Virus record (IMG/VR): IMGVR_UViG_3300021438_000001
Coordinates: 39,453-103,452 of that record
Length of the DNA stretch: 64,000 nt
Source: a virus
Taxonomy: Duplodnaviria; Heunggongvirae; Uroviricota; Caudoviricetes
Direction: 5' to 3' (one strand)
Shown here piece by piece: positions 2,702 to 34,300 of this stretch. Numbering within the stretch: the first letter of the stretch is position 1; the number at the start of each line of letters is the position of its first letter. Under the pieces are notes generated by a model, which saw only the letters and a program-made list of their open reading frames with translations, had not been told where the DNA came from and ran no database searches. Made by a program: the position numbers and the translations under genes.

Positions 2702-3352
2702 ATGAACGTCGCCCAGTATTACAACGAGAACGTGGGCCTCGTCCACGCCGTCACGAAGAAGGGCTTCGCTCGTCTTCAGAAGGCGGGCGTGGCGATGGAC
2801 TATGAAGACGTGTTTCAGGAGATGTCTGTCGTCTTCGTGAAAGCGTGTGAGGGCTTTCAAGCCGACAAAGGCTTTAAGTTCAGCACGTACTTCTTCATTG
2901 CCGCGCAGAACAAGTTGGCGAGCTGGACGAAGAAGATCATCGAGGAGCGCCTTGTCCACAAGGTTGTGAGCATCGAGGAGATGAACCACAACCACGGTGG
3001 CGAGGAGCTTGACCTCGAAAGCATCCTTCCAGGCGACCGCACAACGCCGGAAGACATTGCAAGCGCCAAGCAGTGTGTCGCAGACCTGGCGAAGTCACTC
3101 TCGCCAGTCGCGGCGCAGATCATCGAGTGGATGGTCGAACCCCCGCAAGCTCTGCTGGATGAGTTCAACCGACTGGAAGCTCACGCTGCGTTCGCCCGAA
3201 GCATTGGCTTCGAGCAGCGGTTCAGCGCCCAACTGTCACCGCGCTATGTGGGGCAGTTCTTGGTTCTGTTGGGTGTCAGTGACACTCAAGTCAAATCTGC
3301 CTTGCGTGAGATCAAGTCCTACGCGCAGAACCAAATTGGCAAGTTTTTCTGA
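2702..3352 (+). CDS. sigma-factor-like protein (region-2-like segment)
   Basis: Segment FKFSTYFFIAAQNKLASW resembles sigma70 region 2.2-2.3; translationally coupled to the CobS-like stop. Confidence 0.35.
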   Translation: MNVAQYYNENVGLVHAVTKKGFARLQKAGVAMDYEDVFQEMSVVFVKACEGFQADKGFKFSTYFFIAAQNKLASWTKKIIEERLVHKVVSIEEMNHNHGGEELDLESILPGDRTTPEDIASAKQCVADLAKSLSPVAAQIIEWMVEPPQALLDEFNRLEAHAAFARSIGFEQRFSAQLSPRYVGQFLVLLGVSDTQVKSALREIKSYAQNQIGKFF

Positions 3353-4048: not shown

Positions 4049-4310
4049 GTACCGCACAACAACCTATTGGAGCGCGACGCTGCCCGATCCACTCACGCCA
4101 CCGGCCCCTGGCTTTCGATTGCGTGATTTTAAGGCGGTAACAACCTCTGAATCGGAATCGCACACGGTAGTGGATAGGATCAGCTCAATTGCCAATTCAA
4201 GTGGCGTCTATTCGGGCATCAATATCCCCTACACGCAAAGCGTCATGAAGAGCAAGACGATTCAGTGGGTGGTCTTGTGGGAAAAATATGTAGAACAGGA
4301 GAATGAATGA
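4041..4310 (+). CDS. hypothetical small protein
   Basis: 89-aa ORF; ATGA overlap with the dnaE start. Confidence 0.25.
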   Translation: MYEYRTTTYWSATLPDPLTPPAPGFRLRDFKAVTTSESESHTVVDRISSIANSSGVYSGINIPYTQSVMKSKTIQWVVLWEKYVEQENE

Positions 4311-7300
4311 ACTTGAATCACATGATGGCAGCGAGGTCTGACTTCAGCATTGGCGAATCAATGCTCCAGATCGAACACCTCGTTGCCGACGCAAAGGAGA
4401 AGGGCTATGAGTCCATCACGCTGATGGATACAATGTCACTGCACGGCATGGTGGACTTCACCAACCGCTGCAAGAAAGCAGGCATCAAGCCGATTATCGG
4501 CTGCCGCATTCGTGTCTACGAAGACCCCACCTACCGCAAGCCGAGCAAGGCAAGCGGTGAGCGCGAGAAGCCCAACCCGAGCTTTGGACTGAAGGTCTAC
4601 ATCAAGACTGAAGCCGGCGTCCACGCGCTGATGAAGCTGCTGTCCAAAGGCTTCACCAACGAGTACTTCTACTATCACGCCAGGGTAGGGCTGGCAGATG
4701 TGCTGACGCTCGGCGCTGATGATGTGGCGGTTTCGACTGGCGACCTGTTCAGCATCTGGCACCTCGAACCGACAGTCGTCCAGAACACCATTGAACAGCT
4801 TCAGAGCCACTTCGGTGCGGCCAACGTCTTCGCTGAGTTGTCCCCGATCAACACGCCCCTGTTCGACACGCTCAACGCAAAGGCGATCACCGCAGCTCGT
4901 GCGAACGCCATGCCGCTGCTGGTGACTTACCCCACCTTCTACCGCGATGCAGATGCTGCGGATAGCCTTGAGGTGCTGAACTGCATTACCTCGAACACCA
5001 AAATGGAAGCCGCCTGGCGCCCCATTCAATTCGTCAAAGACTTCTACATTCACGAGCCGAACAAGCTGGTGGAGCGCATCAAGGGCGCAAGCAAGCGGCT
5101 CGCTGAGTTCTCCGCCACCGCAGATGCAAAGGCGTGGGTTGAAGGGCTGTCCAATGTCGAGAAGCTGGTTGAAGACTGCTCGTTCCAGTTTGCCAAGCTG
5201 CCGGTGTCGCTGCCCAAGATGGCCGACAACGAGTTCTTGGCGCTCGGTAAGAAGTGCATCGAGGGCTGGAAGCGCCGCTTCGAGAACCCCGTTCTCGGTC
5301 ACAAGCCCAATGCGGCTGAACTGAAGGTCTACCAAGAGCGGCTGAACTACGAGCTTGGCGTTCTTAAGAAGATGGGCTTCGCAGGCTACTTCTTGCTCGT
5401 GGAAGACCTCGTGATGTGGGCAAAGAAGAACAACATCATCGTTGGCCCAGGTCGTGGTTCGGTGGGTGGTTCGCTGGTCGCCTACCTGATCGGCATCACA
5501 GACGTTGACCCCATCCGATTCGACCTCCTGTTCGAGCGTTTTATCAACCCCGAACGTCTTGACTTGCCAGATGCTGACTTGGACTTCATGTCTTCGAAGC
5601 GCCATCTGGTGATCGAGTACTTGACGGCAAAGTACGGTCTGGATCGCGTTGCAGGCATTTCGAACTACTCGACGCTTGCGAGTGCCTCCGCGCTGCGTGA
5701 CAGTGGTCGCATGTACGGTCTGAATGGCATCGAGCTGACCGCTACCAAACTTGTCCCCAAAGAACACGGTCAATCGTTTTCACTGACCGATGCAGCGAAG
5801 GCTGTACCTGAGATCGACCTGTTCAGGAACGAACATCCGGAAATCTGGAAGCATGCCTTGAACCTCGAAGGGGCAATGCGAGCGTTCGGTCGCCACGCCG
5901 CTGGCGTGGTCGTCGCTGGTGAGCCGCTGGTCAACCGTGCCGTCGTGGAGACGCGAGGGGATGACGCATCGCCAATCGTGTCTTGGGACAAGCGAGTGGT
6001 TGAAGACTGGGGCTTGGTCAAGATGGATATTCTGGGCCTCTCCACGCTCGACGTGCTGGAGATCGCCCGTCAGTACATCAACGACCGTCACGGCGTTGCC
6101 ATTGACTACATGCAACTGCCGCTTGAAGAGACGGACATTATGGAAGCCTTCGGTCGTGGTGACACAACCGGCGTCTTCCAGTTCGAATCGCCAGGCATGA
6201 AGAAGCTGCTCCGTGACCTTGCTGTCGGCGGTACGCTGACCTTCGAGGACATTACCGCTGCGACTGCTCTGTATCGTCCAGGCCCGATGGACTCAGGTCT
6301 GATGGACGACTACGTTGCGATCAAGCAAGGGGTGAAGTCGCCGTACTACGACCACCCCAACATGGAACCCGCGCTTCGCTCCACCAACGGCGTGATCGTC
6401 TATCAGGAGCAGGTGATGCAGGTGGCGGTCGATCTTGCTGGCTTCACTCGCGCAGAAGCCGACCATCTGCGTAAAGCGATGGGCAAGAAAGACAAAGACA
6501 AGATGGCGGAAATGCGCCAGAAGTGGATCGACGGCTGTCTCGCCACGTCCGGACTCGATGACCGCACCGCCGGCAACATCTTCGATAAGATCGAAGCCTT
6601 CGCAGGTTACGGTTTCAACAGAAGCCACGCCGTTGAGTATTCCATCATCAGCTACTGGACGATGTGGGTGCGAGTGCGCTACCCCGCCGAGTACTTCGCC
6701 GCCTGTATGTCGATTGTGGACGAAGAGAAGCTGCCAGGGCTGGTGTCGGACGCTCGGGAGTACAAGATTCAGGTGATGCCACCTGATCTGAACACGTCCT
6801 CGCATCGGTACACCATCCCAGACGACAAGACCATCTTGGCACCGTTCTCTGCGGTCAAGGGCATCAGCGAGAACACCGCCTTGCGTATCGTTGAACTGCG
6901 AGAGCGCAACCGCACTTGGAAGCTGGAGCGCGTGAAGAAGAAGCGTGACGGCACGACGGAGAACATCTACGAGCTGGATGAGACTTCGCCGGTCAAGGGG
7001 CGCTTCGACTCGCCTGATGAGTTCGTGATGGCTGCCGCGCAGCCAGGCTCGAAGGTGAACAGCAAGGTGGTGGAGAACCTGCGTCTCGTGGGTGCGTTTG
7101 CAGCCATTGACCCCGCAGAGCTGTCACCGCTGCACTTCAGCCGCCGCAAAGCCCAGATGGAGCTTCTGCCTGGACTGATCATTGACGATGTGAAGGCTGA
7201 CCGCACGACCGATCTGAGCGCCGGCTTCGTCCGCACCAAGATCATCGAGGTGGTTCAGGACTACAAGAAGTGCAGTGGCTGCACTCTGGCTGGCGAACCA

Positions 7301-7777
7301 CATCCGAGCATTCGCTGCAAGACGAACGTCCGCTTCATGGTGGTGTCCGACTGTCCGACCTGGCAGGAGGAGAAGAAAGACAAGCTGCTCGAAGGCGACT
7401 CGGCTCAGTACATCAAGCAGGCGATCAAAGACGCCGGCCTGTCAGTGACTGACGGCTACTACACCACGCTGGTCAAGGCGAAGAAGAGCGACAAGTTCTT
7501 GGCGAACGAACAGATCAACGGCTGTGCCAAGTTCATCGACCGCGAGCTGGAGCTGATCAAGCCTGCGATCATCGTTGCGCTCGGTTCGGCCACGATCAAG
7601 AAGTTCTTGCCGTCCATCAAGGGCGGAACCGCTGAGTTGGCCGGCAAGTCGTTCTACGACCCCAAGCTCGATGCCACGATTGTCTGTGGCATCAACGCGC
7701 AGCAGATTGGCTTCGATCCGACCAAGCAAGACGTTTTGGATGAGGTGTTCCGCAAAGTCGCCGACATTCTCGCCTAA
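4307..7777 (+). CDS. dnaE: DNA polymerase III alpha subunit (DnaE-type replicase) with a C-terminal family-4 UDG-like domain
   Basis: PHP domain at the N-terminus. Core motif GFAGYFLLVEDLVMWAKKNNIIVGPGRGSVGGSLVAYLIGITDVDPIRFDLLFERFINPER. The last ~170 aa (from CSGCTLAGEPHP ... KPAIIVALGSATIKKF) match the family-4 uracil-DNA glycosylase fold pattern. Confidence 0.9.
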   Translation: MNLNHMMAARSDFSIGESMLQIEHLVADAKEKGYESITLMDTMSLHGMVDFTNRCKKAGIKPIIGCRIRVYEDPTYRKPSKASGEREKPNPSFGLKVYIKTEAGVHALMKLLSKGFTNEYFYYHARVGLADVLTLGADDVAVSTGDLFSIWHLEPTVVQNTIEQLQSHFGAANVFAELSPINTPLFDTLNAKAITAARANAMPLLVTYPTFYRDADAADSLEVLNCITSNTKMEAAWRPIQFVKDFYIHEPNKLVERIKGASKRLAEFSATADAKAWVEGLSNVEKLVEDCSFQFAKLPVSLPKMADNEFLALGKKCIEGWKRRFENPVLGHKPNAAELKVYQERLNYELGVLKKMGFAGYFLLVEDLVMWAKKNNIIVGPGRGSVGGSLVAYLIGITDVDPIRFDLLFERFINPERLDLPDADLDFMSSKRHLVIEYLTAKYGLDRVAGISNYSTLASASALRDSGRMYGLNGIELTATKLVPKEHGQSFSLTDAAKAVPEIDLFRNEHPEIWKHALNLEGAMRAFGRHAAGVVVAGEPLVNRAVVETRGDDASPIVSWDKRVVEDWGLVKMDILGLSTLDVLEIARQYINDRHGVAIDYMQLPLEETDIMEAFGRGDTTGVFQFESPGMKKLLRDLAVGGTLTFEDITAATALYRPGPMDSGLMDDYVAIKQGVKSPYYDHPNMEPALRSTNGVIVYQEQVMQVAVDLAGFTRAEADHLRKAMGKKDKDKMAEMRQKWIDGCLATSGLDDRTAGNIFDKIEAFAGYGFNRSHAVEYSIISYWTMWVRVRYPAEYFAACMSIVDEEKLPGLVSDAREYKIQVMPPDLNTSSHRYTIPDDKTILAPFSAVKGISENTALRIVELRERNRTWKLERVKKKRDGTTENIYELDETSPVKGRFDSPDEFVMAAAQPGSKVNSKVVENLRLVGAFAAIDPAELSPLHFSRRKAQMELLPGLIIDDVKADRTTDLSAGFVRTKIIEVVQDYKKCSGCTLAGEPHPSIRCKTNVRFMVVSDCPTWQEEKKDKLLEGDSAQYIKQAIKDAGLSVTDGYYTTLVKAKKSDKFLANEQINGCAKFIDRELELIKPAIIVALGSATIKKFLPSIKGGTAELAGKSFYDPKLDATIVCGINAQQIGFDPTKQDVLDEVFRKVADILA

Positions 7778-17818: not shown

Positions 17819-20239
17819 ATGAACGATAGTTTTCAAACACCCGCACGGACTTACGCCAAAGGTATTGGTGATGCCGTTGCTGACCGGACAGTGAATCGCA
17901 AGATCACTCGTCCTGTCGAGCCTTATACAAAGACGATTGACCTTCCTCGCCGTGATGACATGGCGCTGGATCATGAAGTTGATGAGTGGTGTAAGTCCAA
18001 TAACCTCGTGATCGAGTCCTATCACGTCAGCTATGGCGACGAGCTGATCGTCCGCTGTGACCTGAAGGTGATCGGCCACGTCGAGGTGGAGAAGTGGGAA
18101 GACGTTGCTCGTCGTGTGGCGACAGGTAACGTGATGCTGCATCCAGAGACTGCCGAGCGTGAGTTCGAGTTCCACGCGATGCACCATCACCTGCGCCAAG
18201 CGTCGATTCTCATGTCCGGTCGCCACCTGCAACACGGTGATGAGAATCAAGCGAGCCGCAACATGGAGGTGTTCACGAACTGCTCGACCGCAGCCTCGAC
18301 CTTCCTGACGTTCTATCTGCTGCTCAACGGCTCCGGTGTCGGTCGCTCCTACGACAACGAAATGATTCGCGCCGACCTGAACAGCTTGCCAATCACGGTT
18401 TGCACCATCGACATGATGCACCCTGATGTGCAGTCAGGCGAGATCGCCGCACTTGACCTGCGTACAGCAAAGCATCTGTATGGCAGCCGCTTCATCGAAG
18501 TGTTCGAAGTGCCTGACAGCCGCGAAGGTTGGGCAAAAGCTATCGAAAAGATGGAAGTTGCCGCATTCAAAGGTCGTCGCAATGAAGTTCTGATTTTGGA
18601 CTTCAGCAAGGTTCGCCATCGCGGTTCGCCAATCGCCGGTATGCAAAACCGTCCTGCGTCTGGCCCTGGCCCAATGATGACTGCCTTGAACAACGTCGCC
18701 AAACTGCGTGACGCCGGTATGGCTCCCTGGCGCGCCGCCATGTACGCCGACCACTACATCGCCGAATGTGTGCTGGTTGGTGGCGCTCGTCGCGCAGCTC
18801 GCATGGCAACGAAGACTTGGAAAGACAAGAACGTGCTGGACTTCATTCATGTCAAGCGCGGTGGCTTCCTCTGGTCTTCGAACAACTCGGTCACTGTGGA
18901 CTCTGAGTTCTGGGCATACGTGAAGGGCGATTTGACTGCGATCAAGGGTGACTACGACCCAGAGGTGCAAGCGCACGCCAAAGCCGTGTTCGACGCATTG
19001 ACTGAAGCTGCCTACTATGACGGTACTGGCGAGCCAGGCATCATTACCGTGGACAAGCTGACTTGGAACGACGAAGGCACTGAGGTGCTGCTTGATGGCA
19101 ATTTCGCTGAGTCCGAGCGTTACAAGCTGGACACCGAAACCCTTGAGCTGACTGCGGTTCTGGCGAAAGCCTGGCTCAACAGCGAATACAAGGTCATCAC
19201 CAACCCATGTGGCGAGATCGTTCTCGGCGCTCTGGGTGGCTACTGCGTGATCGCTGACGTGGTTCCGTTCCACGCTGGCTACCGAGGTGATGGCGCGACC
19301 GCGATCCTGAAGTCCGAATGGGATGACGACGCAGAAGACGCCTTCCGCACCGCGACCCGCGCCTTGATTCGCACTAACCTGATGGACAGCCTGTACTCGA
19401 AAGAGGTCAAGCGAACCAACCGCATCGGCGTTGGCATCACCGGCCTGCATGAGTACGCTTGGGCACGTTTCGGTTACGGCTGGAAGGACATTGTGGATGA
19501 AGTCAAGTCTTTGGACTTCTGGCTCACTCTGTCGCGCTTCAAGCGCGCCGTTCAAGCTGAAGCTGAGAGCTACGCAAAGAGCTTGGGCGTGACGGTTCCG
19601 CACACCAACACTACGATCAAGCCTGCTGGCACCACATCCAAGCTCTTCGGTCTGACTGAAGGCGCTCACCTGGCGTCCATGCGCGAGTTCTTGCGTTGGG
19701 TTCAGTTCCGCAACGACGATCCTCTCATCGACCAGTACCGCGAGTTGGGCTATCCAGTGAAGAAGCTCAAGACCTACTCTGGCACGACCATCGTTGGCTT
19801 CCCCACTGTGCCGACCATCTGCACTCTGGGCATGGGCGACAAGCTGGTCACGGCTGCTGAAGCAACACCGGAAGAGCAATACCAGTACCTGCGCCTGCTT
19901 GAGAAGTATTGGATCACTGGCGTCGAAGAAGACGGCGTGACTCCGCTTCCTGAGCGTGGCAACCAAGTGAGCTACACCCTGAAGTACAACCCCAAGAAGG
20001 TCAGCTTCGAGGAGTTCAAGCGCACTCTGCTGGACGGTCAATCGACTATCCGCTGCTGCTCGGTGATGCCACAAGCTGACACCACAGCCTACGAGTACCA
20101 GCCGGAACAGCCTGTCACCAAGCATGAGTTCGAAATGATCGTGGAAGCGATCAAGGACTCGGAAGAGGTCAAGCAGGACGTGGACTTCGCTCACATCGAC
20201 TGCTCGTCTGGCGCATGTCCGGTGGACTTCAATAAGTGA
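17819..20239 (+). CDS. nrdJ: class II (adenosylcobalamin-dependent) ribonucleotide reductase
   Basis: Active-site NPCGEIVLGALGGYCV motif; C-terminal redox Cys pair CSSGACP; RBS AAAGGAG. Confidence 0.8.
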   Translation: MNDSFQTPARTYAKGIGDAVADRTVNRKITRPVEPYTKTIDLPRRDDMALDHEVDEWCKSNNLVIESYHVSYGDELIVRCDLKVIGHVEVEKWEDVARRVATGNVMLHPETAEREFEFHAMHHHLRQASILMSGRHLQHGDENQASRNMEVFTNCSTAASTFLTFYLLLNGSGVGRSYDNEMIRADLNSLPITVCTIDMMHPDVQSGEIAALDLRTAKHLYGSRFIEVFEVPDSREGWAKAIEKMEVAAFKGRRNEVLILDFSKVRHRGSPIAGMQNRPASGPGPMMTALNNVAKLRDAGMAPWRAAMYADHYIAECVLVGGARRAARMATKTWKDKNVLDFIHVKRGGFLWSSNNSVTVDSEFWAYVKGDLTAIKGDYDPEVQAHAKAVFDALTEAAYYDGTGEPGIITVDKLTWNDEGTEVLLDGNFAESERYKLDTETLELTAVLAKAWLNSEYKVITNPCGEIVLGALGGYCVIADVVPFHAGYRGDGATAILKSEWDDDAEDAFRTATRALIRTNLMDSLYSKEVKRTNRIGVGITGLHEYAWARFGYGWKDIVDEVKSLDFWLTLSRFKRAVQAEAESYAKSLGVTVPHTNTTIKPAGTTSKLFGLTEGAHLASMREFLRWVQFRNDDPLIDQYRELGYPVKKLKTYSGTTIVGFPTVPTICTLGMGDKLVTAAEATPEEQYQYLRLLEKYWITGVEEDGVTPLPERGNQVSYTLKYNPKKVSFEEFKRTLLDGQSTIRCCSVMPQADTTAYEYQPEQPVTKHEFEMIVEAIKDSEEVKQDVDFAHIDCSSGACPVDFNK

Positions 20240-20349
20240 AACGATGGCGTGATCGCTTCAACACCCTGAAAGGGGTGTTGGAGTTCACCACCTGTCTGTT
20301 CATCATTGCCGGAGTGATCCGGCATTGGTGATTCAACAAGGGGAAAGCA

Positions 20350-20475
20350 ATGAACGAAGATGGTTTGGACGTACCGACACCTGAACAAGAAGCTGCACAA
20401 GAGCGCCAATCGCACGATGCGTTCGACGACATTGCACAGCAATTGGCTCGCTACGGGGCAGCAATGACGCGCTGA
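20350..20475 (+). CDS. hypothetical small acidic protein (41 aa)
   Basis: ATG preceded by AAGGGGAAAG; not in the track (<60 aa). Confidence 0.3.
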   Translation: MNEDGLDVPTPEQEAAQERQSHDAFDDIAQQLARYGAAMTR

Positions 20476-20567
20476 CAAGCGGTCGAACAGGCAAGTTGAG
20501 CGGATAAGTCATGAGTGACTTGCATTCCCGTCAAAACTTATATAAGATTACGACATTGAAAGATTGA

Positions 20568-20644
20568 AGCGGGTTAGCTCAGTTGGTTAGAGCGCCGGAT
20601 TCATAATCCGGAGGCCGCAGGTTCGAGTCCTGTGCCCGCAACCA
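20568..20644 (+). tRNA. tRNA-Met (anticodon CAT; could be Ile-lysidine type)
   Basis: Cloverleaf read by hand: D arm GCTCAGTTGGTTAGAGC, anticodon loop TTCATAA, T arm GCAGGTTCGAGTCCTGT, 3' ACCA; position 1:72 is an A-A mismatch. Confidence 0.7.
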
Positions 20645-20645
20645 T

Positions 20646-20721
20646 TCCCTAGTAGCTCAGTTGGTAGAGCAATGGACTGTTAATCCATGTGTCGGTGGTT
20701 CGAACCCACCCTGGGGAGCCA
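20646..20721 (+). tRNA. tRNA-Asn (GTT)
   Basis: Acceptor TCCCTAG/CTGGGGA, anticodon loop CTGTTAA, T loop GGTTCGAAC, 3' GCCA. Confidence 0.8.
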
Positions 20722-20816
20722 TCAAGACTGTTCTCTCTAAGAGGCAACCGTCCCGCAGCGCGAGTCGTACCGTGCCGCATCGACTAACGCCCACCAGAGA
20801 ACAGCCTTGATGGAAC
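20722..20816 (+). ncRNA. structured spacer element A (candidate stable sRNA)
   Basis: 13-bp closing stem CAAGACTGTTCTC / GAGAACAGCCTTG (one mismatch); internal conserved boxes TCTAAGAGGCAAC and GCCCACCAG shared with element B. Confidence 0.35.
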
Positions 20817-20891
20817 GCTCGGTTCGTCTATCGGTAAGGACACTGGCCTTTCACGTCAGTAAGGCGGGTTCGATTCCCGCACCGAGTACCA
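20817..20891 (+). tRNA. tRNA-Glu (TTC)
   Basis: Acceptor GCTCGGT/ACCGAGT (G1-U72), anticodon loop CTTTCAC, T arm GCGGGTTCGATTCCCGC, 3' ACCA. Confidence 0.75.
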
Positions 20892-20894
20892 GTT

Positions 20895-20971
20895 CGGAGA
20901 TTAGCGCAGTCTGGTAGCGCATCTGCTTTGGGAGCAGAGGGTCGTAGGTTCGAATCCTACATCTCCGACCA
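20895..20971 (+). tRNA. tRNA-Pro (TGG)
   Basis: Acceptor CGGAGAT/ATCTCCG, D arm GCGCAGTCTGGTAGCGC, anticodon loop TTTGGGA, 3' ACCA. Confidence 0.8.
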
Positions 20972-21063
20972 TGAAGTTTGGTCACTCTAAGAGGCAACGG
21001 CTAGGTTCCCTGATTCTGATTCGGGGAGGCGATGTTAAGCCCACCAGTGACCAAACTTGATGG
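20972..21063 (+). ncRNA. structured spacer element B (paralog of A; candidate stable sRNA)
   Basis: Perfect 12-bp closing stem AAGTTTGGTCAC / GTGACCAAACTT; same CTCTAAGAGGCAAC and GCCCACCAG boxes as A; ends ...CTTGATGG like A. Confidence 0.35.
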
Positions 21064-21150
21064 GTAGATAGACTTGTAGGGGGCAAGAGCGGACTGTAAA
21101 TCCGTTGTTCTGCGGAACCCCACTGGCTCGACTCCAGTTCTGCCCACCAC
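21063..21150 (+). tRNA. tRNA-Tyr-like (GTA) with long variable arm, irregular 5' half; possible pseudogene
   Basis: Clean anticodon arm GCGGA-CTGTAAA-TCCGT, variable hairpin GTTCtgcgGAAC, T arm ACTGGctcgactCCAGT and 3' TCTGCCC-A-CCA. No 5' strand pairs with the 3' acceptor: GGGCAGA is needed but GGTAGAT/GGGCAAG is found. Confidence 0.3.
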
Positions 21151-21226
21151 GCCACCTTAGCTCAGTTGGTAGAGCAGCTGCCTTGTAAGCAGAAGGTCTG
21201 GGGTTCGATTCCTCAAGGTGGCACCA
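21151..21226 (+). tRNA. tRNA-Thr (TGT)
   Basis: Acceptor GCCACCT/AGGTGGC, anticodon loop CTTGTAA, T arm TGGGGTTCGATTCCTCA, 3' ACCA. Confidence 0.8.
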
Positions 21227-21328
21227 TCATGAGTGAAGACTTCTGGGTTCGATTCCCAGGGGACGGGTGAAACTAAAACGGCTAACTACCGACCTATCCC
21301 GAGCTGGACGAAAGTCTTCACCCATGAT
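21227..21328 (+). ncRNA. structured spacer element C (candidate sRNA or tRNA-derived remnant)
   Basis: 15-bp closing stem CATGAGTGAAGACTT / AAGTCTTCACCCATG (one mismatch); contains a perfect tRNA T-arm-like hairpin CTGGGTTCGATTCCCAG; ends ...CATGATGG. Confidence 0.3.
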
Positions 21329-21404
<76 letters not shown>

Positions 21405-21405
21405 A

Positions 21406-21490
21406 GCCCAGGTGGTGAAATTGGTAGACGCAACAGCTTCAGGTGCTGTCGCCGCAAGGCGTGCCGGTTCGAGTCCGGCTCTGGGCACCA
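21406..21490 (+). tRNA. tRNA-Leu (CAG), type II
   Basis: Acceptor GCCCAGG/TCTGGGC, anticodon arm ACAGC-TTCAGGT-GCTGT, long variable arm, discriminator A, CCA. Confidence 0.8.
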
Positions 21491-21491
21491 C

Positions 21492-21576
21492 GCGCTCGTG
21501 GTGGAATTGGTAGACACGCTGTCTTGAGGTGGCAGTGCCGAAAGGTGTGGGAGTTCGAGTCTCCCCGAGCGCACCA
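21492..21576 (+). tRNA. tRNA-Leu (GAG), type II
   Basis: Acceptor GCGCTCG/CGAGCGC, anticodon arm CTGTC-TTGAGGT-GGCAG (anticodon GAG), long variable arm, discriminator A, CCA. Confidence 0.7.
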
Positions 21577-21670
21577 AATTTTGAAGCAATGCCGTTGCGT
21601 TGCCTGCTGATTTAGCAGAGTCCATCGCTACAATGTATAAGTCACGAGTGACATTCAAGAAGGAGAAACT

Positions 21671-22084
21671 ATGACAAACCCCAACCCAAGCCACCCGCAA
21701 GCGGTCGCAGCTTTGGCTCGCGCCAAGCAACGCGATCTTGAGCGCCGCGCTGAACGCGCAACCATCGAGGAGGCCCGCGAAGCTGGCATTCGATTCGTGG
21801 AGGTGACTCCGCAGAGCTTCAGCTTCTCTGACACCGGCCCCATCAAGGCTGGTCGCATGACCATCGCCTACCGCGAACGTGGTCGCAACATCGTGGAAGT
21901 GTCCACGTCGATCTGCCACCGCGCAGACGAGTTTAACAAGTCCACTGGTCGCGCTCTCGCTGGCTTGGGTCTGCTGAATGGTCAGTCGATTCTGCTCCGC
22001 AAGCCGCGCTTCGACCCGAACCGCCACATCACCACGAAGAACTGGCTGATCGGCACGTTCACCTTCACGGCGGACGAGCAATGA
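21671..22084 (+). CDS. hypothetical protein
   Basis: 137-aa ORF; RBS AAGGAGAAA; follows an ATAAGTCAcgagTGAC box. Confidence 0.45.
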   Translation: MTNPNPSHPQAVAALARAKQRDLERRAERATIEEAREAGIRFVEVTPQSFSFSDTGPIKAGRMTIAYRERGRNIVEVSTSICHRADEFNKSTGRALAGLGLLNGQSILLRKPRFDPNRHITTKNWLIGTFTFTADEQ

Positions 22085-29794: not shown

Positions 29795-29940
29795 AGGGTG
29801 CGATTTTGTTCCAGGGCATCTACCTGATGCCTGGATCACAAGCTCACAAGCTCCACACCGAGAAGAAGTGGGCCGAACTCACTGCTCACATGAAGGAGCT
29901 GGATGACAAGAAAAAGAAGTTGGAAGGAACAACGAAATGA
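29791..29940 (+). CDS. hypothetical 49-aa protein
   Basis: ATGA-coupled on both sides. Confidence 0.25.
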   Translation: MKGAILFQGIYLMPGSQAHKLHTEKKWAELTAHMKELDDKKKKLEGTTK

Positions 29941-31094
29941 GTACCTTTGCCTGTCCAGTGGTTCGCATCAAGATCGAGCCGCATCCGAACGCTGACGCCA
30001 TCGAGATCGCTCGTGTCGGCGACTACCAGTCCATCGTCAAGAAGGGCCAATTCAACGAAGGCGACCTGGCGGTCTACATCCCCGAGCAAGCGGTGCTGCC
30101 GCAGTGGTTGCTGGAGCTGATGGGTTTCTGGGACGCGATCAAGGTCAAAGGCAGCCTCTCTGGTTCGCTCGGCAATCGTGTCAAGGCGATCAAGCTGCGC
30201 CAAGTGCTGTCGCAGGGCCTGATTCTCGGCATCGAGGTCGCTGAAGACCGTATCGGCAACCCGCTGCGCCAGCTCCAAGAGGGTGAGGACGTGTCTTCGT
30301 ACCTTGAGATCGTCAAGTACGAGCCTCCCATCCCCTCGCACATGGCTGGTCGCATCGTTGGCGTCGATCTGGCTGCCACCCTGAACTACGACTTTGAGAA
30401 CCTGAAGAAGAACCCCGAACTGTTCGAGGACGGCGAGGAGGTTGTCATCACGGAGAAGATTCACGGCACCTTCATGCAAATCGGCGTCGTGCCTTCGGAG
30501 ATGGCGAACGAACGCTACTACAAGGGTCGCGTCATCGTGTCCAGCAAGGGTATGGGTGCGAAGGGCTACATCCTCGACCACACCGACGAGACGAACCTCT
30601 ACGTCCAAACAGCCAAGAAGTACGGTCTATTGGACTCGACGCTCGAATACTTCGGTGACGCTGCCGACGATGTGGGCAAGCCTTACTTCATCTGCGGCGA
30701 AGTGTTCGGCAAGACACCTGAAGGCAAGGGTGTTCAGGATTTGGTCTACAACGGCGAGGTCTTGGGCTTTCGCATGTTCGACGTGTGCTGTGGCACTCGC
30801 GGTCAGCAGGAGTTCTTCGACTTCGAGTCCTTCTGCGATGCCGCCATGTCGCTGAATGCTCCGATTGCGCCGGTTCTCTATGTTGGGCCGTACAGCAAAG
30901 AGGTCGTCCTTCACCACACAGATGGCAACACTGTGGTGCAGCCAGAGGTCACGCGCAACTACATCGCGCAGATTCGTGAAGGCGTCGTTGTGAAGTCGAT
31001 TAGCGAGCTTCCTCACAAGCGTTACGGTCGCAAGATCGCTAAGAGCGTGAGCGAAGCGTACCTCCTGCGCAAGAACGCCACTGAGTTCAACTGA
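29937..31094 (+). CDS. RNA ligase-family nucleotidyltransferase fused to an N-terminal tRNA-binding (Myf/EMAP-like OB) domain
   Basis: N-terminus VVRIKIEPHPNADAIEIARVGDYQSIVKKGQFNEGDLAVYIPEQAVLP matches the PheT/CsaA tRNA_bind pattern (hPNADkL...Vd.G...iV.GA.N). Covalent nucleotidyltransferase motif I is present as TEKIHGT (KxHG). Confidence 0.55.
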   Translation: MSTFACPVVRIKIEPHPNADAIEIARVGDYQSIVKKGQFNEGDLAVYIPEQAVLPQWLLELMGFWDAIKVKGSLSGSLGNRVKAIKLRQVLSQGLILGIEVAEDRIGNPLRQLQEGEDVSSYLEIVKYEPPIPSHMAGRIVGVDLAATLNYDFENLKKNPELFEDGEEVVITEKIHGTFMQIGVVPSEMANERYYKGRVIVSSKGMGAKGYILDHTDETNLYVQTAKKYGLLDSTLEYFGDAADDVGKPYFICGEVFGKTPEGKGVQDLVYNGEVLGFRMFDVCCGTRGQQEFFDFESFCDAAMSLNAPIAPVLYVGPYSKEVVLHHTDGNTVVQPEVTRNYIAQIREGVVVKSISELPHKRYGRKIAKSVSEAYLLRKNATEFN

Positions 31095-32514: not shown

Positions 32515-32721
32515 ATGCCCGATATAAGCATGTGCCACGACAAGACCTGCACTAAGCGCAAGGACTGCTATCGCTACCGCGCTCAGGCAAACCCATACCG
32601 ACAGTCGTATTTCGTGGGTTCGCCCAAGAACGAAGACGGCAGTTGTGACCACCACTGGCCGGTGGAAGCCGGCGACCGATTGACACCTCTGGAGGAACTT
32701 GATGCGCGTAGTTGGACTTGA
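32515..32721 (+). CDS. Cys/His-rich small protein
   Basis: MPDISMCHDKTCTKRKDCYRY...; AAGGAG RBS. Confidence 0.4.
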   Translation: MPDISMCHDKTCTKRKDCYRYRAQANPYRQSYFVGSPKNEDGSCDHHWPVEAGDRLTPLEELDARSWT

Positions 32722-33238
32722 CCTTGAAACAACCGGACTCGAAGTGGAGAAGGGCCATCGCATCTGCGAAGCCGCTCTGCTGACCTACGAGGACGGCAAG
32801 CTGGTGGAACGATGGGTTCACCGCTTCAACCCCGAGCGACCCGTTGATCCAGACGCCTCTCGCGTTCACGGCATCTACTTCGAGGACGTAGCTGAGTGCC
32901 CTAAGTTCAGCGAGTACGCCAGTGAGGTTCGCCAGCGTCTTGAACAGGCTGACGTTGTGGTGATCCACAACGCCCAGTTCGACGCGCCCTTTGTCGGCAC
33001 TGAGCTGATGATGGCTGGAGAAACGCTCCCTGAAATGAACATCTTCTGCACATTGGAGAACGGTCGATGGGCTACACCGAACGGCAAGGCACCCAAATTG
33101 GGCGAACTGTGCTTCGCGCTTGGAATCCCCTACGACGAGACATCCGCTCACTCTGCCGATTACGACACTGAAGTGATGATGAATTGCTTCTTCCAAGGTT
33201 TGAAGCGCGGCTTCTTCGCACCGAAAGGACTGCAATGA
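32702..33238 (+). CDS. DnaQ-like DEDDh 3'-5' exonuclease (probable proofreading subunit)
   Basis: Exo I GLDLETTGL, Exo II HNAQFDAPF, Exo III HSADYD; GGAGGAA RBS. Confidence 0.75.
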   Translation: MRVVGLDLETTGLEVEKGHRICEAALLTYEDGKLVERWVHRFNPERPVDPDASRVHGIYFEDVAECPKFSEYASEVRQRLEQADVVVIHNAQFDAPFVGTELMMAGETLPEMNIFCTLENGRWATPNGKAPKLGELCFALGIPYDETSAHSADYDTEVMMNCFFQGLKRGFFAPKGLQ

Positions 33239-33378: not shown

Positions 33379-33746
33379 CTGCCGGTCTATACATCCCAGG
33401 ACTCGATTGGCCTGACGACACGCTCGAAGTCGAGTGCGTTGGCTTCAGCGAAGGGATTCTCTACAACCTGATCGTCGCCATCGACCATGATCGAGTGGAG
33501 GTCGTCAGCAATAGCGAGAACGGCTGGAGTCGAGAGTGGACGTTCGACTATCTCGGCTTTCGATACAGGCTAGAGGCTGAGATCAAAGAGGACGCCTCTG
33601 GCATCTTGCACATCGCTCCGTATCGCATGACCAAGATCGCCAAGATGGGCGTCGATGATGATGGGGAACCAGTTGTGGTGGAGAGCTACCCGCTCACCAA
33701 AGCAATCATGAAGCATAAGTATGAAGGCACATGGGGTAGTTTCTAA
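33375..33746 (+). CDS. hypothetical protein
   Basis: GTGA-coupled GTG start; 123 aa. Confidence 0.35.
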   Translation: MTAGLYIPGLDWPDDTLEVECVGFSEGILYNLIVAIDHDRVEVVSNSENGWSREWTFDYLGFRYRLEAEIKEDASGILHIAPYRMTKIAKMGVDDDGEPVVVESYPLTKAIMKHKYEGTWGSF

Positions 33747-34300
33747 TGGCAACTTTTTTCACATCTGACACCCACTTCGGTCACGAAGGCATCATCAAGC
33801 ACTCCAGCCGTAAGTTCGCTGATTCGTTTGAAATGGACGGCGAGCTGGTTCGACGCTGGAACAGCGTGGTTCGCCCTGACGATACCGTCTATCACTTGGG
33901 CGACCTGTCGTTCAAGGGCTTGGCGTACACGATGCACATCCTTGAATCGCTCAATGGACGCATTCACTGGGTCTTGGGCAACCATGACAAGGCGCTGAAA
34001 AGCAAGTCGCCGATGGTGTCGCGCATGGAGTCCATCCAGTCGTTGCTGGAGGTCAACATCGACGGCCAACACATCGTCATGTGCCATTTCCCGATGCTGA
34101 CGTGGAACAAGGCGCACTACGGCTCTTGGATGCTGCACGGTCACTCGCACGGCACTCTGAAGCACCCCTACGAAGGTATGCGACTGCTGGATGTCGGCGT
34201 CGATACCAACAATCTCACCCCCTATTCACTCGATGAAGTCAGGGAATACATGCAGGGTCGAAGCCACACGGCTGTAGACCACCACACTACAAAGGAGTGA
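33746..34300 (+). CDS. calcineurin-like metallophosphoesterase
   Basis: Motifs SDTHFGH, HLGDL, GNHD, MCHFP. Confidence 0.65.
   Translation: MATFFTSDTHFGHEGIIKHSSRKFADSFEMDGELVRRWNSVVRPDDTVYHLGDLSFKGLAYTMHILESLNGRIHWVLGNHDKALKSKSPMVSRMESIQSLLEVNIDGQHIVMCHFPMLTWNKAHYGSWMLHGHSHGTLKHPYEGMRLLDVGVDTNNLTPYSLDEVREYMQGRSHTAVDHHTTKE

What the first reader, a model, noticed from the sequence alone, without database searches (positions are those of the whole stretch)
20722..21063. Two paralogous ~90-nt hairpin-closed structured elements (A: 20722-20816, B: 20972-21063) inside the tRNA array: candidate stable phage sRNAs
Each element sits exactly between two tRNAs, separated by 0-3 nt. Each is closed by a 12-13-bp terminal stem: A is CAAGACTGTTCTC...GAGAACAGCCTTG, and B is AAGTTTGGTCAC...GTGACCAAACTT. 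Both carry the same internal boxes in the same positions, CUCUAAGAGGCAAC just 3' of the 5' stem and GCCCACCAG just 5' of the 3' stem, while the central ~40 nt differ. Both end in CTTGATGG. The stem sequences differ but pairing is preserved (compensatory change), and primary-sequence boxes are conserved, which argues for a functional RNA rather than random spacer. T4 is known to encode two stable RNAs of unknown function inside its tRNA cluster, so this may be an analogous but distinct family.
Basis: partly seen in the sequence, partly recalled or inferred. Interest (0 to 1): 0.8.

Follow-up and report, generated by a model that had tools for sequence, protein, structure and literature searches.

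The report
New structured RNAs inside phage tRNA array
Two ~90-nt spacers in a phage tRNA gene cluster belong to a previously undescribed, evolutionarily conserved family of rod-shaped RNAs with an anticodon-loop-like tip, whose function is still unknown.

Summary
A (20722-20816) and B (20972-21063) are paralogs of one RNA family. I found 14 distinct copies in about a dozen related uncultivated ~105-kb phages, always inside the tRNA array downstream of a class II RNR gene.

The architecture is fixed:
- a 15-bp closing helix P1, extended 3 bp by pairing with the upstream tRNA's CCA
- an invariant asymmetric internal loop (CWAAGA / CACS)
- a 2-4-bp P2, then P3 and P4
- usually a 7-nt apical loop YYNUGAY, which resembles an anticodon loop

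P1, P2 and P4 all show compensatory changes. Rfam 15, ARAGORN, blastn against cultured phages and the T4 rnaC/rnaD region give no match. No Ro60 gene is present in the window.

Short-P1 copies carry the same core, and one of them is 73 nt and ends in ACCA. An unrelated core (element C, 21227-21328) uses the same kind of closing helix. P1 therefore looks like a generic embedding and processing module, and the core looks like the functional part.

Best guess (inferred): the RNA is cut out of the polycistronic tRNA precursor as a stable RNA that mimics a tRNA anticodon arm and binds a protein. It is a new family of a loosely known kind. Function and expression are untested.

The parts
20722..20816 (+). 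Element A, whole (between tRNA-Asn and tRNA-Glu)
   Evidence: CM R1 scores 68.6 bits on the + strand and 30.7 on the - strand.
20719..20721 (+). CCA end of tRNA-Asn, which pairs with UGG 20811-20813 (the clamp extending P1 of A)
   Evidence: Fold. C-G, C-G and A-U are conserved in 9-10 of 10 long copies.
20722..20736 (+). A: P1 5' strand (15 nt)
20737..20742 (+). A: invariant internal-loop strand CUAAGA (J1/2)
   Evidence: Alignments.
20743..20745 (+). A: P2 5' strand GGC
   Evidence: P2 covaries across the family: GG/CC, AC/GU and GC/GC.
20758..20775 (+). A: apical hairpin GCGCG-AGUCGUAC-CGUGC (8-nt loop, the divergent copy)
20789..20795 (+). A: P2 3' strand GCC plus internal-loop strand CACC
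20796..20813 (+). A: P1 3' strand (15 nt) plus the UGG clamp
20972..21063 (+). Element B, whole (between tRNA-Pro and tRNA-Tyr). Bases 21062-21063 are shared with tRNA-Tyr.
   Evidence: CM R1 scores 82.3 bits on the + strand and 31.1 on the - strand.
20972..20986 (+). B: P1 5' strand
20987..20995 (+). B: CUAAGA loop strand plus P2 GGC
21006..21028 (+). B: apical hairpin P4 (8 bp) with the 7-nt loop UUCUGAU (21014-21020), which is anticodon-loop-like
21039..21063 (+). B: P2 3' strand GCC, CACC loop strand, P1 3' strand and UGG
21227..21328 (+). Element C. This is a third non-tRNA element in the same array, with an unrelated core (canonical T-arm CUGGG-UUCGAUU-CCCAG, GACGAAAG) but the same kind of ~18-bp closing helix that reaches into the upstream CCA.
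   Evidence: A homolog in L195 has compensatory P1 changes. Rfam matches only the T-arm.
20507..20549 (+). Conserved leader of the array: palindrome AGTCATGAGTGACTT, then TTGCAT...TATATAAGATT (promoter-like)
   Evidence: The same leader is present in L098, L174, L175 and L183. The palindrome is reiterated about 25 times in the window against 2.1 matches expected.
21640..21654 (+). The next copy of the palindrome, just downstream of the array. There is none inside the array.

Best explanation
A and B are two copies of a new family of structured RNA genes carried in the tRNA array of a clade of ~105-kb phages.

Shown:
- They lie on the tRNA strand inside a unit with no internal promoter- or terminator-like site.
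- They start exactly after the CCA of the upstream tRNA.
- They fold into a rod made of P1 (15 bp, plus 3 bp with the CCA), an invariant 6/4-nt internal loop (CWAAGA/CACS), P2, P3 and P4, usually capped by a 7-nt loop YYNUGAY.
- The helices covary while the loops stay fixed.

Inferred:
- The array is transcribed as one precursor.
- Host tRNA-processing enzymes release the element. RNase P cuts at the 5' end of the next tRNA. An endonuclease cuts at or near CCA|U, either RNase E as it does for hairpins abutting E. coli proline tRNAs, or RNase III within the 18-bp helix.
- The long terminal helix then protects the ~90-nt product from exonucleases.
- P1 is a generic embedding and stability module, because unrelated cores use the same design and some copies of this core have only a 5-7-bp P1.
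- The conserved internal loop and the anticodon-loop-like tip are the working surfaces.

My committed guess is a trans-acting tRNA anticodon-arm mimic. It would bind, and perhaps titrate, a protein that recognises anticodon loops, such as a host tRNA-targeting nuclease or a modification enzyme. That is the same arena in which phage tRNA genes are thought to act.

Confidence that it is a real, selected structured RNA is about 0.9. Confidence that it is a released stable RNA is about 0.55. Confidence in the mimic/decoy mechanism is about 0.25-0.3. The single figure given for this explanation (0.45) is for the statement as a whole.
For: - Family and conservation: there are 14 distinct copies in related phages. 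CM R1 finds non-training copies L173a (47.9 bits, E 2e-9), L188b and L183b.
- P1: 10 of 11 long copies have arms of exactly 18 nt. 95.5% of cells are paired, 9 of 18 pairs show changes on both sides, 0 of 500 shuffles reach the observed score, and slid registers give 21-50% paired.
- P2 covaries as GG/CC, AC/GU and GC/GC.
- P4: all 7 pairs show changes on both sides and 0 of 500 shuffles reach the score. UGA is invariant in the loop of the 8 copies that have a 7-nt loop.
- Strand: 68-86 bits on the + strand against about 30 on the - strand.
- No ORF overlaps A or B.
- No promoter- or terminator-like site lies inside the array. The reiterated palindrome flanks the array but does not interrupt it.
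- Modularity: short-P1 copies L173b (73 nt, ends GGCAG-ACCA) and L188b carry the same core. Element C and its L195 homolog have a different core inside a similar ~18-bp helix that reaches the CCA.
- Precedent for one-step endonucleolytic removal of a hairpin directly after CCA by RNase E: PMC5291269 abstract.
- Precedent for stable non-tRNA RNAs processed from a phage tRNA cluster: T4 rnaC and rnaD.
Against: - There are no expression data of any kind.
- The apical loop is not conserved in every copy. A has an 8-nt loop AGUCGUAC, and L173a, L188b, L189a and L198a also differ.
- Loop position 33 is C, not U, in two copies, and P4 length varies from 3 to 8 bp, so mimicry of an anticodon arm is loose.
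- The fixed 15-bp P1 length and the invariant UG/CA step would also fit a purely cis-acting processing signal.
- No partner protein has been identified.
- The family is small and closely related (effective sequence number 3.0), so invariant positions may partly reflect shared ancestry.
Confidence: 0.45

Rival explanations
1. The element is a cis-acting processing or insulator element. P1, together with the CCA:UGG clamp, forms a double-stranded site (for RNase III or another endonuclease) that separates the flanking tRNAs and sets the order of their maturation. The excised RNA has no function of its own.
For: - The element begins exactly at the CCA.
- P1 length is fixed at 15+3 bp in 10 of 11 long copies, with invariant UG/CA and CU/AG steps.
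- Unrelated cores (element C) sit in the same kind of helix.
- Other tRNA-tRNA spacers in the array are only 1-3 nt.
Against: - The most conserved parts are the internal loop and the apical loop, not P1.
- Copies with a 5-7-bp P1 keep the same core.
- Most tRNA junctions in these arrays manage without any such element.
- Arrays in close relatives lack it altogether (L176, L178, L187, L200).
Confidence: 0.25
2. The element is a new self-cleaving ribozyme that releases the 3' end of the upstream tRNA. It would be functionally analogous to the HDV-like theta ribozymes of gut phages.
For: - The position directly against a tRNA 3' end is the context reported for theta ribozymes (PMC10879173).
- About 20 positions are invariant.
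- The window encodes a DRB0094-family RNA ligase (TIGR02306, 207 bits). That paper reports this family as 140-fold enriched in theta-ribozyme phages.
Against: - No ribozyme family in Rfam matches, even at E <= 10.
- The fold is a plain hairpin with no nested pseudoknot.
- The conserved loop lies 15 bp (about 40 Å) from the CCA|U junction, so it could not reach that bond.
- The tRNAs here encode CCA, whereas only 4.5% of theta-associated tRNAs do.
- Cleavage would leave a cyclic phosphate on A76.
Confidence: 0.07
3. The element is a Y-RNA-like partner of a Ro60 (TROVE) protein. Bacterial and phage YrlA RNAs are long-stem RNAs with a tRNA-like module.
For: - The general layout fits: a long terminal stem plus a tRNA-like feature, 80-130 nt.
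- Phages are known to encode YrlA (PMC4201824).
- Neighbouring element C has a T-arm, a GACGAAAG motif and a YrlA-like order of modules.
Against: - No TROVE domain occurs in any ORF >= 250 aa of the window.
- The Rfam YrlA model does not hit A, B or C. It gives only 25-29 bits, on tRNAs, against a gathering score of 69.
- A and B have no GNCGAA motif, no T-like arm and no D-like arm.
Confidence: 0.05
4. The element is a degenerate tRNA gene, or a bizarre but functional tRNA (Gln/His-like, given NUG 'anticodons' and no tRNA-Gln or tRNA-His in these arrays).
For: - The apical loops read CUG, UUG, GUG and AUG, flanked like anticodon loops.
- L173b is 73 nt and ends in ACCA.
- The arrays of the element-bearing sub-clade never contain tRNA-Gln or tRNA-His.
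Against: - ARAGORN in bacterial modes and the Rfam tRNA model reject every copy. The permissive mitochondrial mode gives inconsistent calls on both strands.
- There is no D-arm or T-arm.
- Covariation and invariant loops argue against a pseudogene.
- Long copies have no free acceptor end.
Confidence: 0.04
5. The element acts at the DNA level, as a MITE-like inverted repeat, a recombination site or an attachment site.
For: - It has terminal inverted repeats.
- Its position within arrays varies.
- P1 and the core appear to have been exchanged as modules.
Against: - The inverted repeats vary while the interior boxes are fixed, which is the opposite of a transposon.
- There are no copies outside the tRNA array in 64 kb.
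- Scores are strongly asymmetric between strands.
- G.U pairs occur in P1 and P4.
Confidence: 0.03

Closest known systems
Phage T4 stable RNAs rnaC (species 1) and rnaD (species 2)
   Same: They are non-tRNA RNAs of 119-139 nt encoded inside a phage tRNA cluster, on the tRNA strand, 1-6 nt from their neighbours. rnaC contains a tRNA-like T-arm. Their function is unknown.
   Different: There is no sequence or structure homology (R1 scores <= 6 bits). The T4 RNAs sit at the end of the cluster. They are not closed by a 15-18-bp helix that pairs with the upstream CCA, and they lack the CWAAGA/CACS loop.
Bacterial/phage Y RNAs (YrlA, Rfam RF02553)
   Same: They are 80-130-nt RNAs with a long terminal stem plus a module that mimics part of a tRNA. 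Some phages encode them (PMC4201824).
   Different: YrlA is encoded next to Ro60, carries GNCGAAN0-1G, and mimics the T, D and acceptor arms. A and B have none of these and mimic, at most, an anticodon arm. The Rfam model gives no hit.
Theta (minimal HDV-like) ribozymes next to phage tRNAs (PMC10879173)
   Same: They are structured RNAs placed directly at the 3' end of phage tRNAs. The phages that carry them often co-encode a DRB0094-family RNA ligase, and this window encodes one too.
   Different: Theta ribozymes have a nested double pseudoknot with a catalytic C and sit mostly beside tRNAs that lack an encoded CCA. A and B are simple rods beside tRNAs that encode CCA, and no HDV-like model matches them.
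Leader-trailer processing helices (rRNA operons) and phage T7 RNase III sites (from general knowledge)
   Same: A long helix formed by sequences flanking a functional RNA, often interrupted by an internal loop, serves to excise it from a polycistronic transcript.
   Different: Here the helix encloses a small conserved core. RNase III cleavage is not shown.

Membership tests
tRNA | Cloverleaf with D-arm, T-arm and a 7-bp acceptor stem, detectable by ARAGORN or Rfam RF00005 | tested here: not met
   ARAGORN bacterial, relaxed and intron modes found 0 genes in all elements. RF00005 hits only the 9 true tRNAs.
tRNA | 7-nt anticodon loop with U33 and a purine at position 37 | tested here: inconclusive
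   8 of 13 distinct cores examined have a 7-nt loop YYNUGAY. Position 33 is C in L174 and L183b. A has an 8-nt loop.
YrlA / bacterial Y RNA (RF02553) | Match to the Rfam covariance model at the gathering score (69 bits) | tested here: not met
   There is no hit on A, B or C at E <= 10. Flanking tRNAs score only 25-29 bits.
YrlA / bacterial Y RNA (RF02553) | Encoded within ~4 kb of, and on the same strand as, a Ro60 (TROVE) gene (PMC4201824) | tested here: not met
   No TROVE domain occurs in any ORF >= 250 aa of the 64-kb window. The rest of the ~105-kb genome was not seen.
YrlA / bacterial Y RNA (RF02553) | GNCGAAN0-1G motif near the 5' end, and conserved T-like and D-like stem-loops | tested here: not met
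   All are absent from A and B. Element C has a T-arm and GACGAAAG, but the motif is on its 3' side.
T4 rnaC/rnaD-type stable RNAs | Non-tRNA gene inside a phage tRNA cluster, on the same strand, within a few nt of neighbouring tRNAs | tested here: met
T4 rnaC/rnaD-type stable RNAs | Sequence or structure homology to rnaC or rnaD | tested here: not met
   R1 with filters off scores <= 6 bits across the T4 cluster. The folds differ.
T4 rnaC/rnaD-type stable RNAs | Accumulates as a discrete stable RNA processed from the tRNA precursor | not testable with these tools
   No expression data are available.
HDV-like / theta ribozymes | Nested double-pseudoknot fold with a catalytic C in J4/2 | tested here: not met
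   No HDV-like Rfam family matches at E <= 10. The consensus fold is an unbranched hairpin whose 5' end pairs with its 3' end.
HDV-like / theta ribozymes | Cleavage site adjacent to a tRNA 3' end | tested here: inconclusive
   The position fits, because the element starts right after the CCA. Cleavage itself was not tested.
Other small self-cleaving ribozymes (twister, twister-sister, hatchet, pistol, hammerhead, hairpin) | Match to the Rfam model | tested here: not met
   A 106-nt scan of A returned 0 hits at E <= 10.
MITE / transposon-derived inverted repeat | Conserved terminal inverted repeats, dispersed copies, target-site duplications | tested here: not met
   The termini vary while the interior is fixed. 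The only copies in the window are the two in the array.

The most novel reading that the evidence does not exclude
The elements are RNA-based counter-defence or tRNA-maturation devices of a kind not yet described. One possibility is a tRNA anticodon-arm decoy that titrates a host anticodon-loop-directed nuclease or enzyme. The other is a new catalytic or guide RNA that, together with the phage DRB0094 RNA ligase, controls release or resealing of the tRNA 3' end held in the CCA:UGG clamp. Cleavage at CCA|U would leave a nick in a continuous duplex, which is the preferred substrate type of that ligase family (from general knowledge).
Probability: 0.15. Interest if true: 0.85.

Novelty: new variant of a known kind. 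Interest (0 to 1): 0.62.

Why it matters
Phage tRNA clusters are usually read as lists of tRNAs. The non-tRNA RNAs in the T4 cluster have had no assigned function for about 50 years.

This clade shows that tRNA arrays can act as a general expression platform for several unrelated structured RNAs, each packaged in a similar closing helix that abuts the neighbouring tRNA ends. At least three or four core types are visible in the arrays examined.

The family described here has a small, well-defined conserved core, consisting of one internal loop and one apical loop. That makes it experimentally tractable for protein pull-downs, processing assays and phage competition assays.

If it proves to be a tRNA mimic that engages host tRNA-directed enzymes, it would add an RNA-level layer to the phage-host conflict over tRNAs. 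If it is only a processing signal, it would still show how tightly packed phage tRNA precursors are matured.

Tried and rejected
1. Known RNA family. Rfam 15 was run at gathering and at E <= 10, on the whole window, on the array, on A alone, on C alone and on 8 related arrays. Only tRNAs were found. The RtT (21.9 bits) and YrlA (29 bits) sub-threshold hits lay on tRNAs and vanished when A was scanned alone.
2. Cultured-phage homologs. megablast and blastn match only the tRNAs. The nearest cultured relatives (Rhizobium phages RHph_I4 and P11VFA) have no tRNA array after RNR.
3. Wider distribution. Exact-box scans of the viral, metagenome and genome collections gave only L098 and L158 as real hits. 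All other hits lacked a closing stem. R1 found nothing in 69 more distant RNR loci (548 kb), and most of those have no array.
4. tRNA or armless tRNA. ARAGORN rejected them in all bacterial modes.
5. Ro60 partner. No TROVE gene was found.
6. Tertiary or kissing pairing between the apical loop (..CCUCU..) and the internal loop (..AGAGG). It exceeds chance only in L174 and L175, so it is not a family feature.
7. Shine-Dalgarno plus small ORF inside the elements. No consistent start codon or ORF exists (by eye).
8. Kink-turn, loop E, UAA/GAN and 11-nt tetraloop-receptor readings of CUAAGA/CACC. By eye, the opposite strand does not fit any of them.
9. Co-occurrence of the DRB0094 ligase with the elements across the clade. 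The last viral scan returned only one 40% relative, so this is inconclusive.

Full report
**Observation.** The window carries a nine-tRNA array on the + strand: Met, Asn, Glu, Pro, Tyr, Thr, Trp, Leu, Leu (20568-21576). tRNA-tRNA spacers are 1-3 nt, except for three gaps of 95, 90 and 102 nt.

The 14-mer CTCTAAGAGGCAAC occurs exactly twice in the window. GCCCACCAG and CTTGATGG are present in both elements, and both are closed by a long stem. Both fold much better than dinucleotide shuffles (z = -4.5 to -6.3). No ORF of 60 aa or more overlaps them.

Three corrections apply:
- The helix is 15 bp, and it continues for 3 more pairs because the upstream tRNA's CCA pairs with the UGG that follows the helix.
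- B's final GG is also G1G2 of tRNA-Tyr.
- The third gap (C, 21227-21328) holds another hairpin-closed element with a different interior.

**Not a known family.** Rfam 15 finds only tRNAs at gathering score. At E <= 10 there is nothing on A or B. The weak YrlA and RtT matches lie on tRNAs and disappear when A is scanned alone. For C, only the T-arm hairpin matches.

ARAGORN does not call any element a tRNA in bacterial modes. Cultured-phage records match only the tRNAs.

**Homologs.** Exact-box scans of the public collections gave two real hits, L098 (viral contig) and L158 (a 105-kb metagenome contig). All other hits lacked a closing stem.

Using the class II RNR gene just upstream (17819-20239) I collected related phages, which are an uncultivated clade with ~105-110-kb genomes. 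Most have a tRNA array 100-300 nt downstream of RNR. Their non-tRNA gaps contain further copies with diverged boxes and stems. The 14 distinct sequences are winA, winB, L098, L158, L197, L173a, L173b, L174, L175, L183b, L188a, L188b, L189a and L198a.

A covariance model built from ten long copies (R1) finds only A and B in the window. They score 68.6 and 82.3 bits on the + strand, and about 31 on the - strand. R1 also recovers three copies it was not trained on: L173a (47.9 bits, E 2e-9), L188b and L183b.

R1 finds nothing in 69 more distant RNR loci (548 kb). Sixty-one of the 72 loci scanned for tRNAs there have no tRNA near RNR. The nearest cultured relatives, Rhizobium phages RHph_I4 and P11VFA, have no array there either. 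The family is therefore confined to one sub-clade.

**Anatomy.**
- P1: in 10 of 11 long copies both arms are exactly 18 nt from the CCA to the internal loop. 95.5% of cells are paired. Nine of 18 pairs show changes on both sides. None of 500 shuffles reaches the observed score, and slid registers fall to 21-50% paired. Four P1 pairs never vary: a UG/CA step in the middle and CU/AG next to the loop.
- Internal loop: CWAAGA on the 5' side and CACS on the 3' side. These are invariant apart from the marked positions.
- P2: 2-4 bp, and it covaries as GG/CC, AC/GU and GC/GC.
- Interior: variable in sequence but shared in layout, namely P3, a 6/4-nt loop and P4.
- P4: covaries at all 7 positions examined (0 of 500 shuffles).
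- Apical loop: in 8 of the 13 distinct cores examined, P4 is capped by a 7-nt loop YYNUGAY. The loops are UUCUGAU, CUCUGAC, CUCUGAA, CUAUGAC, UUGUGAU and UCUUGAY. This is the format of an anticodon loop carrying CUG, UUG, GUG or AUG. The 8 copies were selected for having a 7-nt loop, so the invariance of UGA is partly by construction. A itself has an 8-nt loop.

None of the arrays in the element-bearing sub-clade encodes tRNA-Gln or tRNA-His.

**Modularity.** Two copies have the same core in a short P1:
- L173b is 73 nt: CUGCC-CUAAGA-...-CACC-GGCAG-ACCA. It is tRNA-sized and has a tRNA-like 3' end.
- L188b has a 7-bp P1 followed by UGG.

Conversely, element C has an unrelated core (a canonical T-arm, a second hairpin and GACGAAAG) enclosed by an ~18-bp helix that again reaches into the upstream CCA. 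Its homolog in L195 has compensatory changes in that helix. Further core types occur in the relatives' arrays.

A's P1 resembles that of L174 at the same Asn|Glu position, while its core is of the L098/L158 type. P1 and core have evidently been exchanged. I infer that P1 is a generic device for embedding a foreign RNA in a tRNA precursor, and that the core carries the specific function.

**Transcription context.** No sigma-70-like promoter or intrinsic terminator is predicted inside 20200-21900. A conserved leader precedes the array here and in the relatives. Its palindrome AAGTCA-N4-TGACTT is reiterated about 25 times in the window (44 matches against 2.1 expected). Copies lie just before (20507) and just after (21640) the array, and none lies inside it. 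Co-transcription with the tRNAs is therefore likely, but it is inferred.

**Mechanism.**
- Shown: this is a selected RNA structure on the tRNA strand, abutting tRNA ends.
- Inferred: RNase P cutting at the next tRNA, plus an endonucleolytic cut at or near CCA|U, releases a ~90-nt rod protected by its terminal helix. RNase E removes hairpins placed directly after CCA in the E. coli proline tRNAs (PMC5291269 abstract). RNase III is the alternative, given the 18-bp helix.
- Conserved single-stranded surfaces are what one expects of a protein- or RNA-binding ncRNA. My committed guess is a tRNA anticodon-arm mimic that binds or titrates an anticodon-loop-recognising factor (about 0.25-0.3).
- The main rival is a purely cis-acting processing element (0.25). 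The fixed P1 geometry favours it. The conserved core, the short-P1 copies and the dispensability of the element in sister arrays count against it.

**Other rivals.**
- Self-cleaving ribozyme. Theta ribozymes abut phage tRNAs (PMC10879173), and the phages carrying them are enriched 140-fold for DRB0094-family RNA ligase. The window encodes such a ligase (TIGR02306, 207 bits). However, no ribozyme model matches, the fold is an unbranched hairpin, and the conserved loop is 15 bp from the junction.
- Y-RNA-like. There is no TROVE gene, no YrlA model hit and no GNCGAA, T or D elements.
- Aberrant tRNA. Rejected by tRNA finders, and the covariation argues against a pseudogene.
- DNA-level repeat. 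The termini vary while the interior is fixed, the copies occur only in the array, and the scores are strand-asymmetric.

**Comparison with T4.** T4 annotates rnaC (139 nt) and rnaD (119 nt) at the end of its tRNA cluster, 1-6 nt from their neighbours. rnaC contains a T-arm. R1 scores 6 bits or less there. The analogy of context holds. Homology does not.

**Verdict.** This is a real, conserved, previously uncatalogued structured-RNA family. It is a new variant of the loosely defined kind 'stable non-tRNA RNAs embedded in phage tRNA clusters / tRNA mimics'. Expression and function remain to be shown.

Noticed in passing
window 21227-21328: Element C is a third hairpin-closed non-tRNA element, lying between tRNA-Thr and tRNA-Trp. 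Its closing helix is ~18 bp and reaches the upstream CCA. Next come a canonical T-arm (CUGGG-UUCGAUU-CCCAG) and a second hairpin. GACGAAAG sits just before the 3' strand, matching the YrlA motif GNCGAAN0-1G but on the wrong side. The module order (stem, T, hairpin, GG-containing strand, stem) resembles YrlA, but Rfam YrlA does not hit it. A homolog in L195 (5824-5930) has compensatory changes in the helix.
   Followed up: partly
L173 6902-7019; L176 ~3115-3211; L183 ~6972-7100; L188 ~5527-5645 and 5726-5851; L198 ~6275-6455; L174 6827-6923: The tRNA arrays of related phages contain several further hairpin-closed elements with other cores. One type shares the box CUGCUUCAUGUGA in L176, L183 and L188. 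None matches Rfam at gathering score. These arrays look like a general platform for structured RNAs.
   Followed up: partly
window 29937-31094: This ORF is a DRB0094-family RNA ligase (TIGR02306, 207 bits against a cutoff of 151; Pfam PF09414 plus the PHA02142 OB-fold). The family is reported as 140-fold enriched in phages that carry tRNA-adjacent theta ribozymes (PMC10879173). I could not establish whether it co-occurs with the elements across the clade.
   Followed up: partly
window, about 25 sites, e.g. 1398, 7784, 15072, 17755, 20507, 21640, 24104, 48332, 60011: The palindrome AAGTCA-N4-TGACTT gives 44 matches against 2.1 expected by shuffling. Judged by eye against the ORF map, most sites appear to fall between genes, often just before a start codon or a promoter-like TTGC..TATAA. 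It is probably a phage-specific operator or promoter element. The same motif occurs in the leaders of relatives' arrays.
   Followed up: partly
window 4307-7777: The DNA polymerase III alpha ORF (1156 aa) carries a C-terminal uracil-DNA-glycosylase-superfamily domain (PF03167, residues 1004-1105).
   Followed up: no
window 32699-33238 and 33746-34300: A DEDD/RNase T-family exonuclease (PF00929, 88 bits) and a borderline calcineurin-like phosphoesterase (20.9 bits against a cutoff of 21.5) lie a few kb from the RNA ligase. They could be a Pol III proofreading subunit and a DNA-repair enzyme, or RNA end-trimming and end-healing enzymes.
   Followed up: no
window 21062-21149: tRNA-Tyr(GTA) is missed by Rfam at gathering score in the whole-window scan, and scores only 32.9 bits in the sensitive scan. 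In relatives L158 and L197, ARAGORN misses the orthologous tRNA-Tyr altogether. This is an atypical class II tRNA.
   Followed up: no
L180 7655-8097: ARAGORN calls a permuted tmRNA (tag peptide AGKPGCPPHSFGCA*) downstream of RNR in a more distant relative that has no tRNA array.
   Followed up: no
L198 5086-5538; L200 1749-2504; the P0038 locus: GIY-YIG or HNH homing-endonuclease genes sit next to RNR and the tRNA array in several relatives. This recalls segB inside the T4 tRNA cluster and may drive the rapid reshuffling of these arrays.
   Followed up: no
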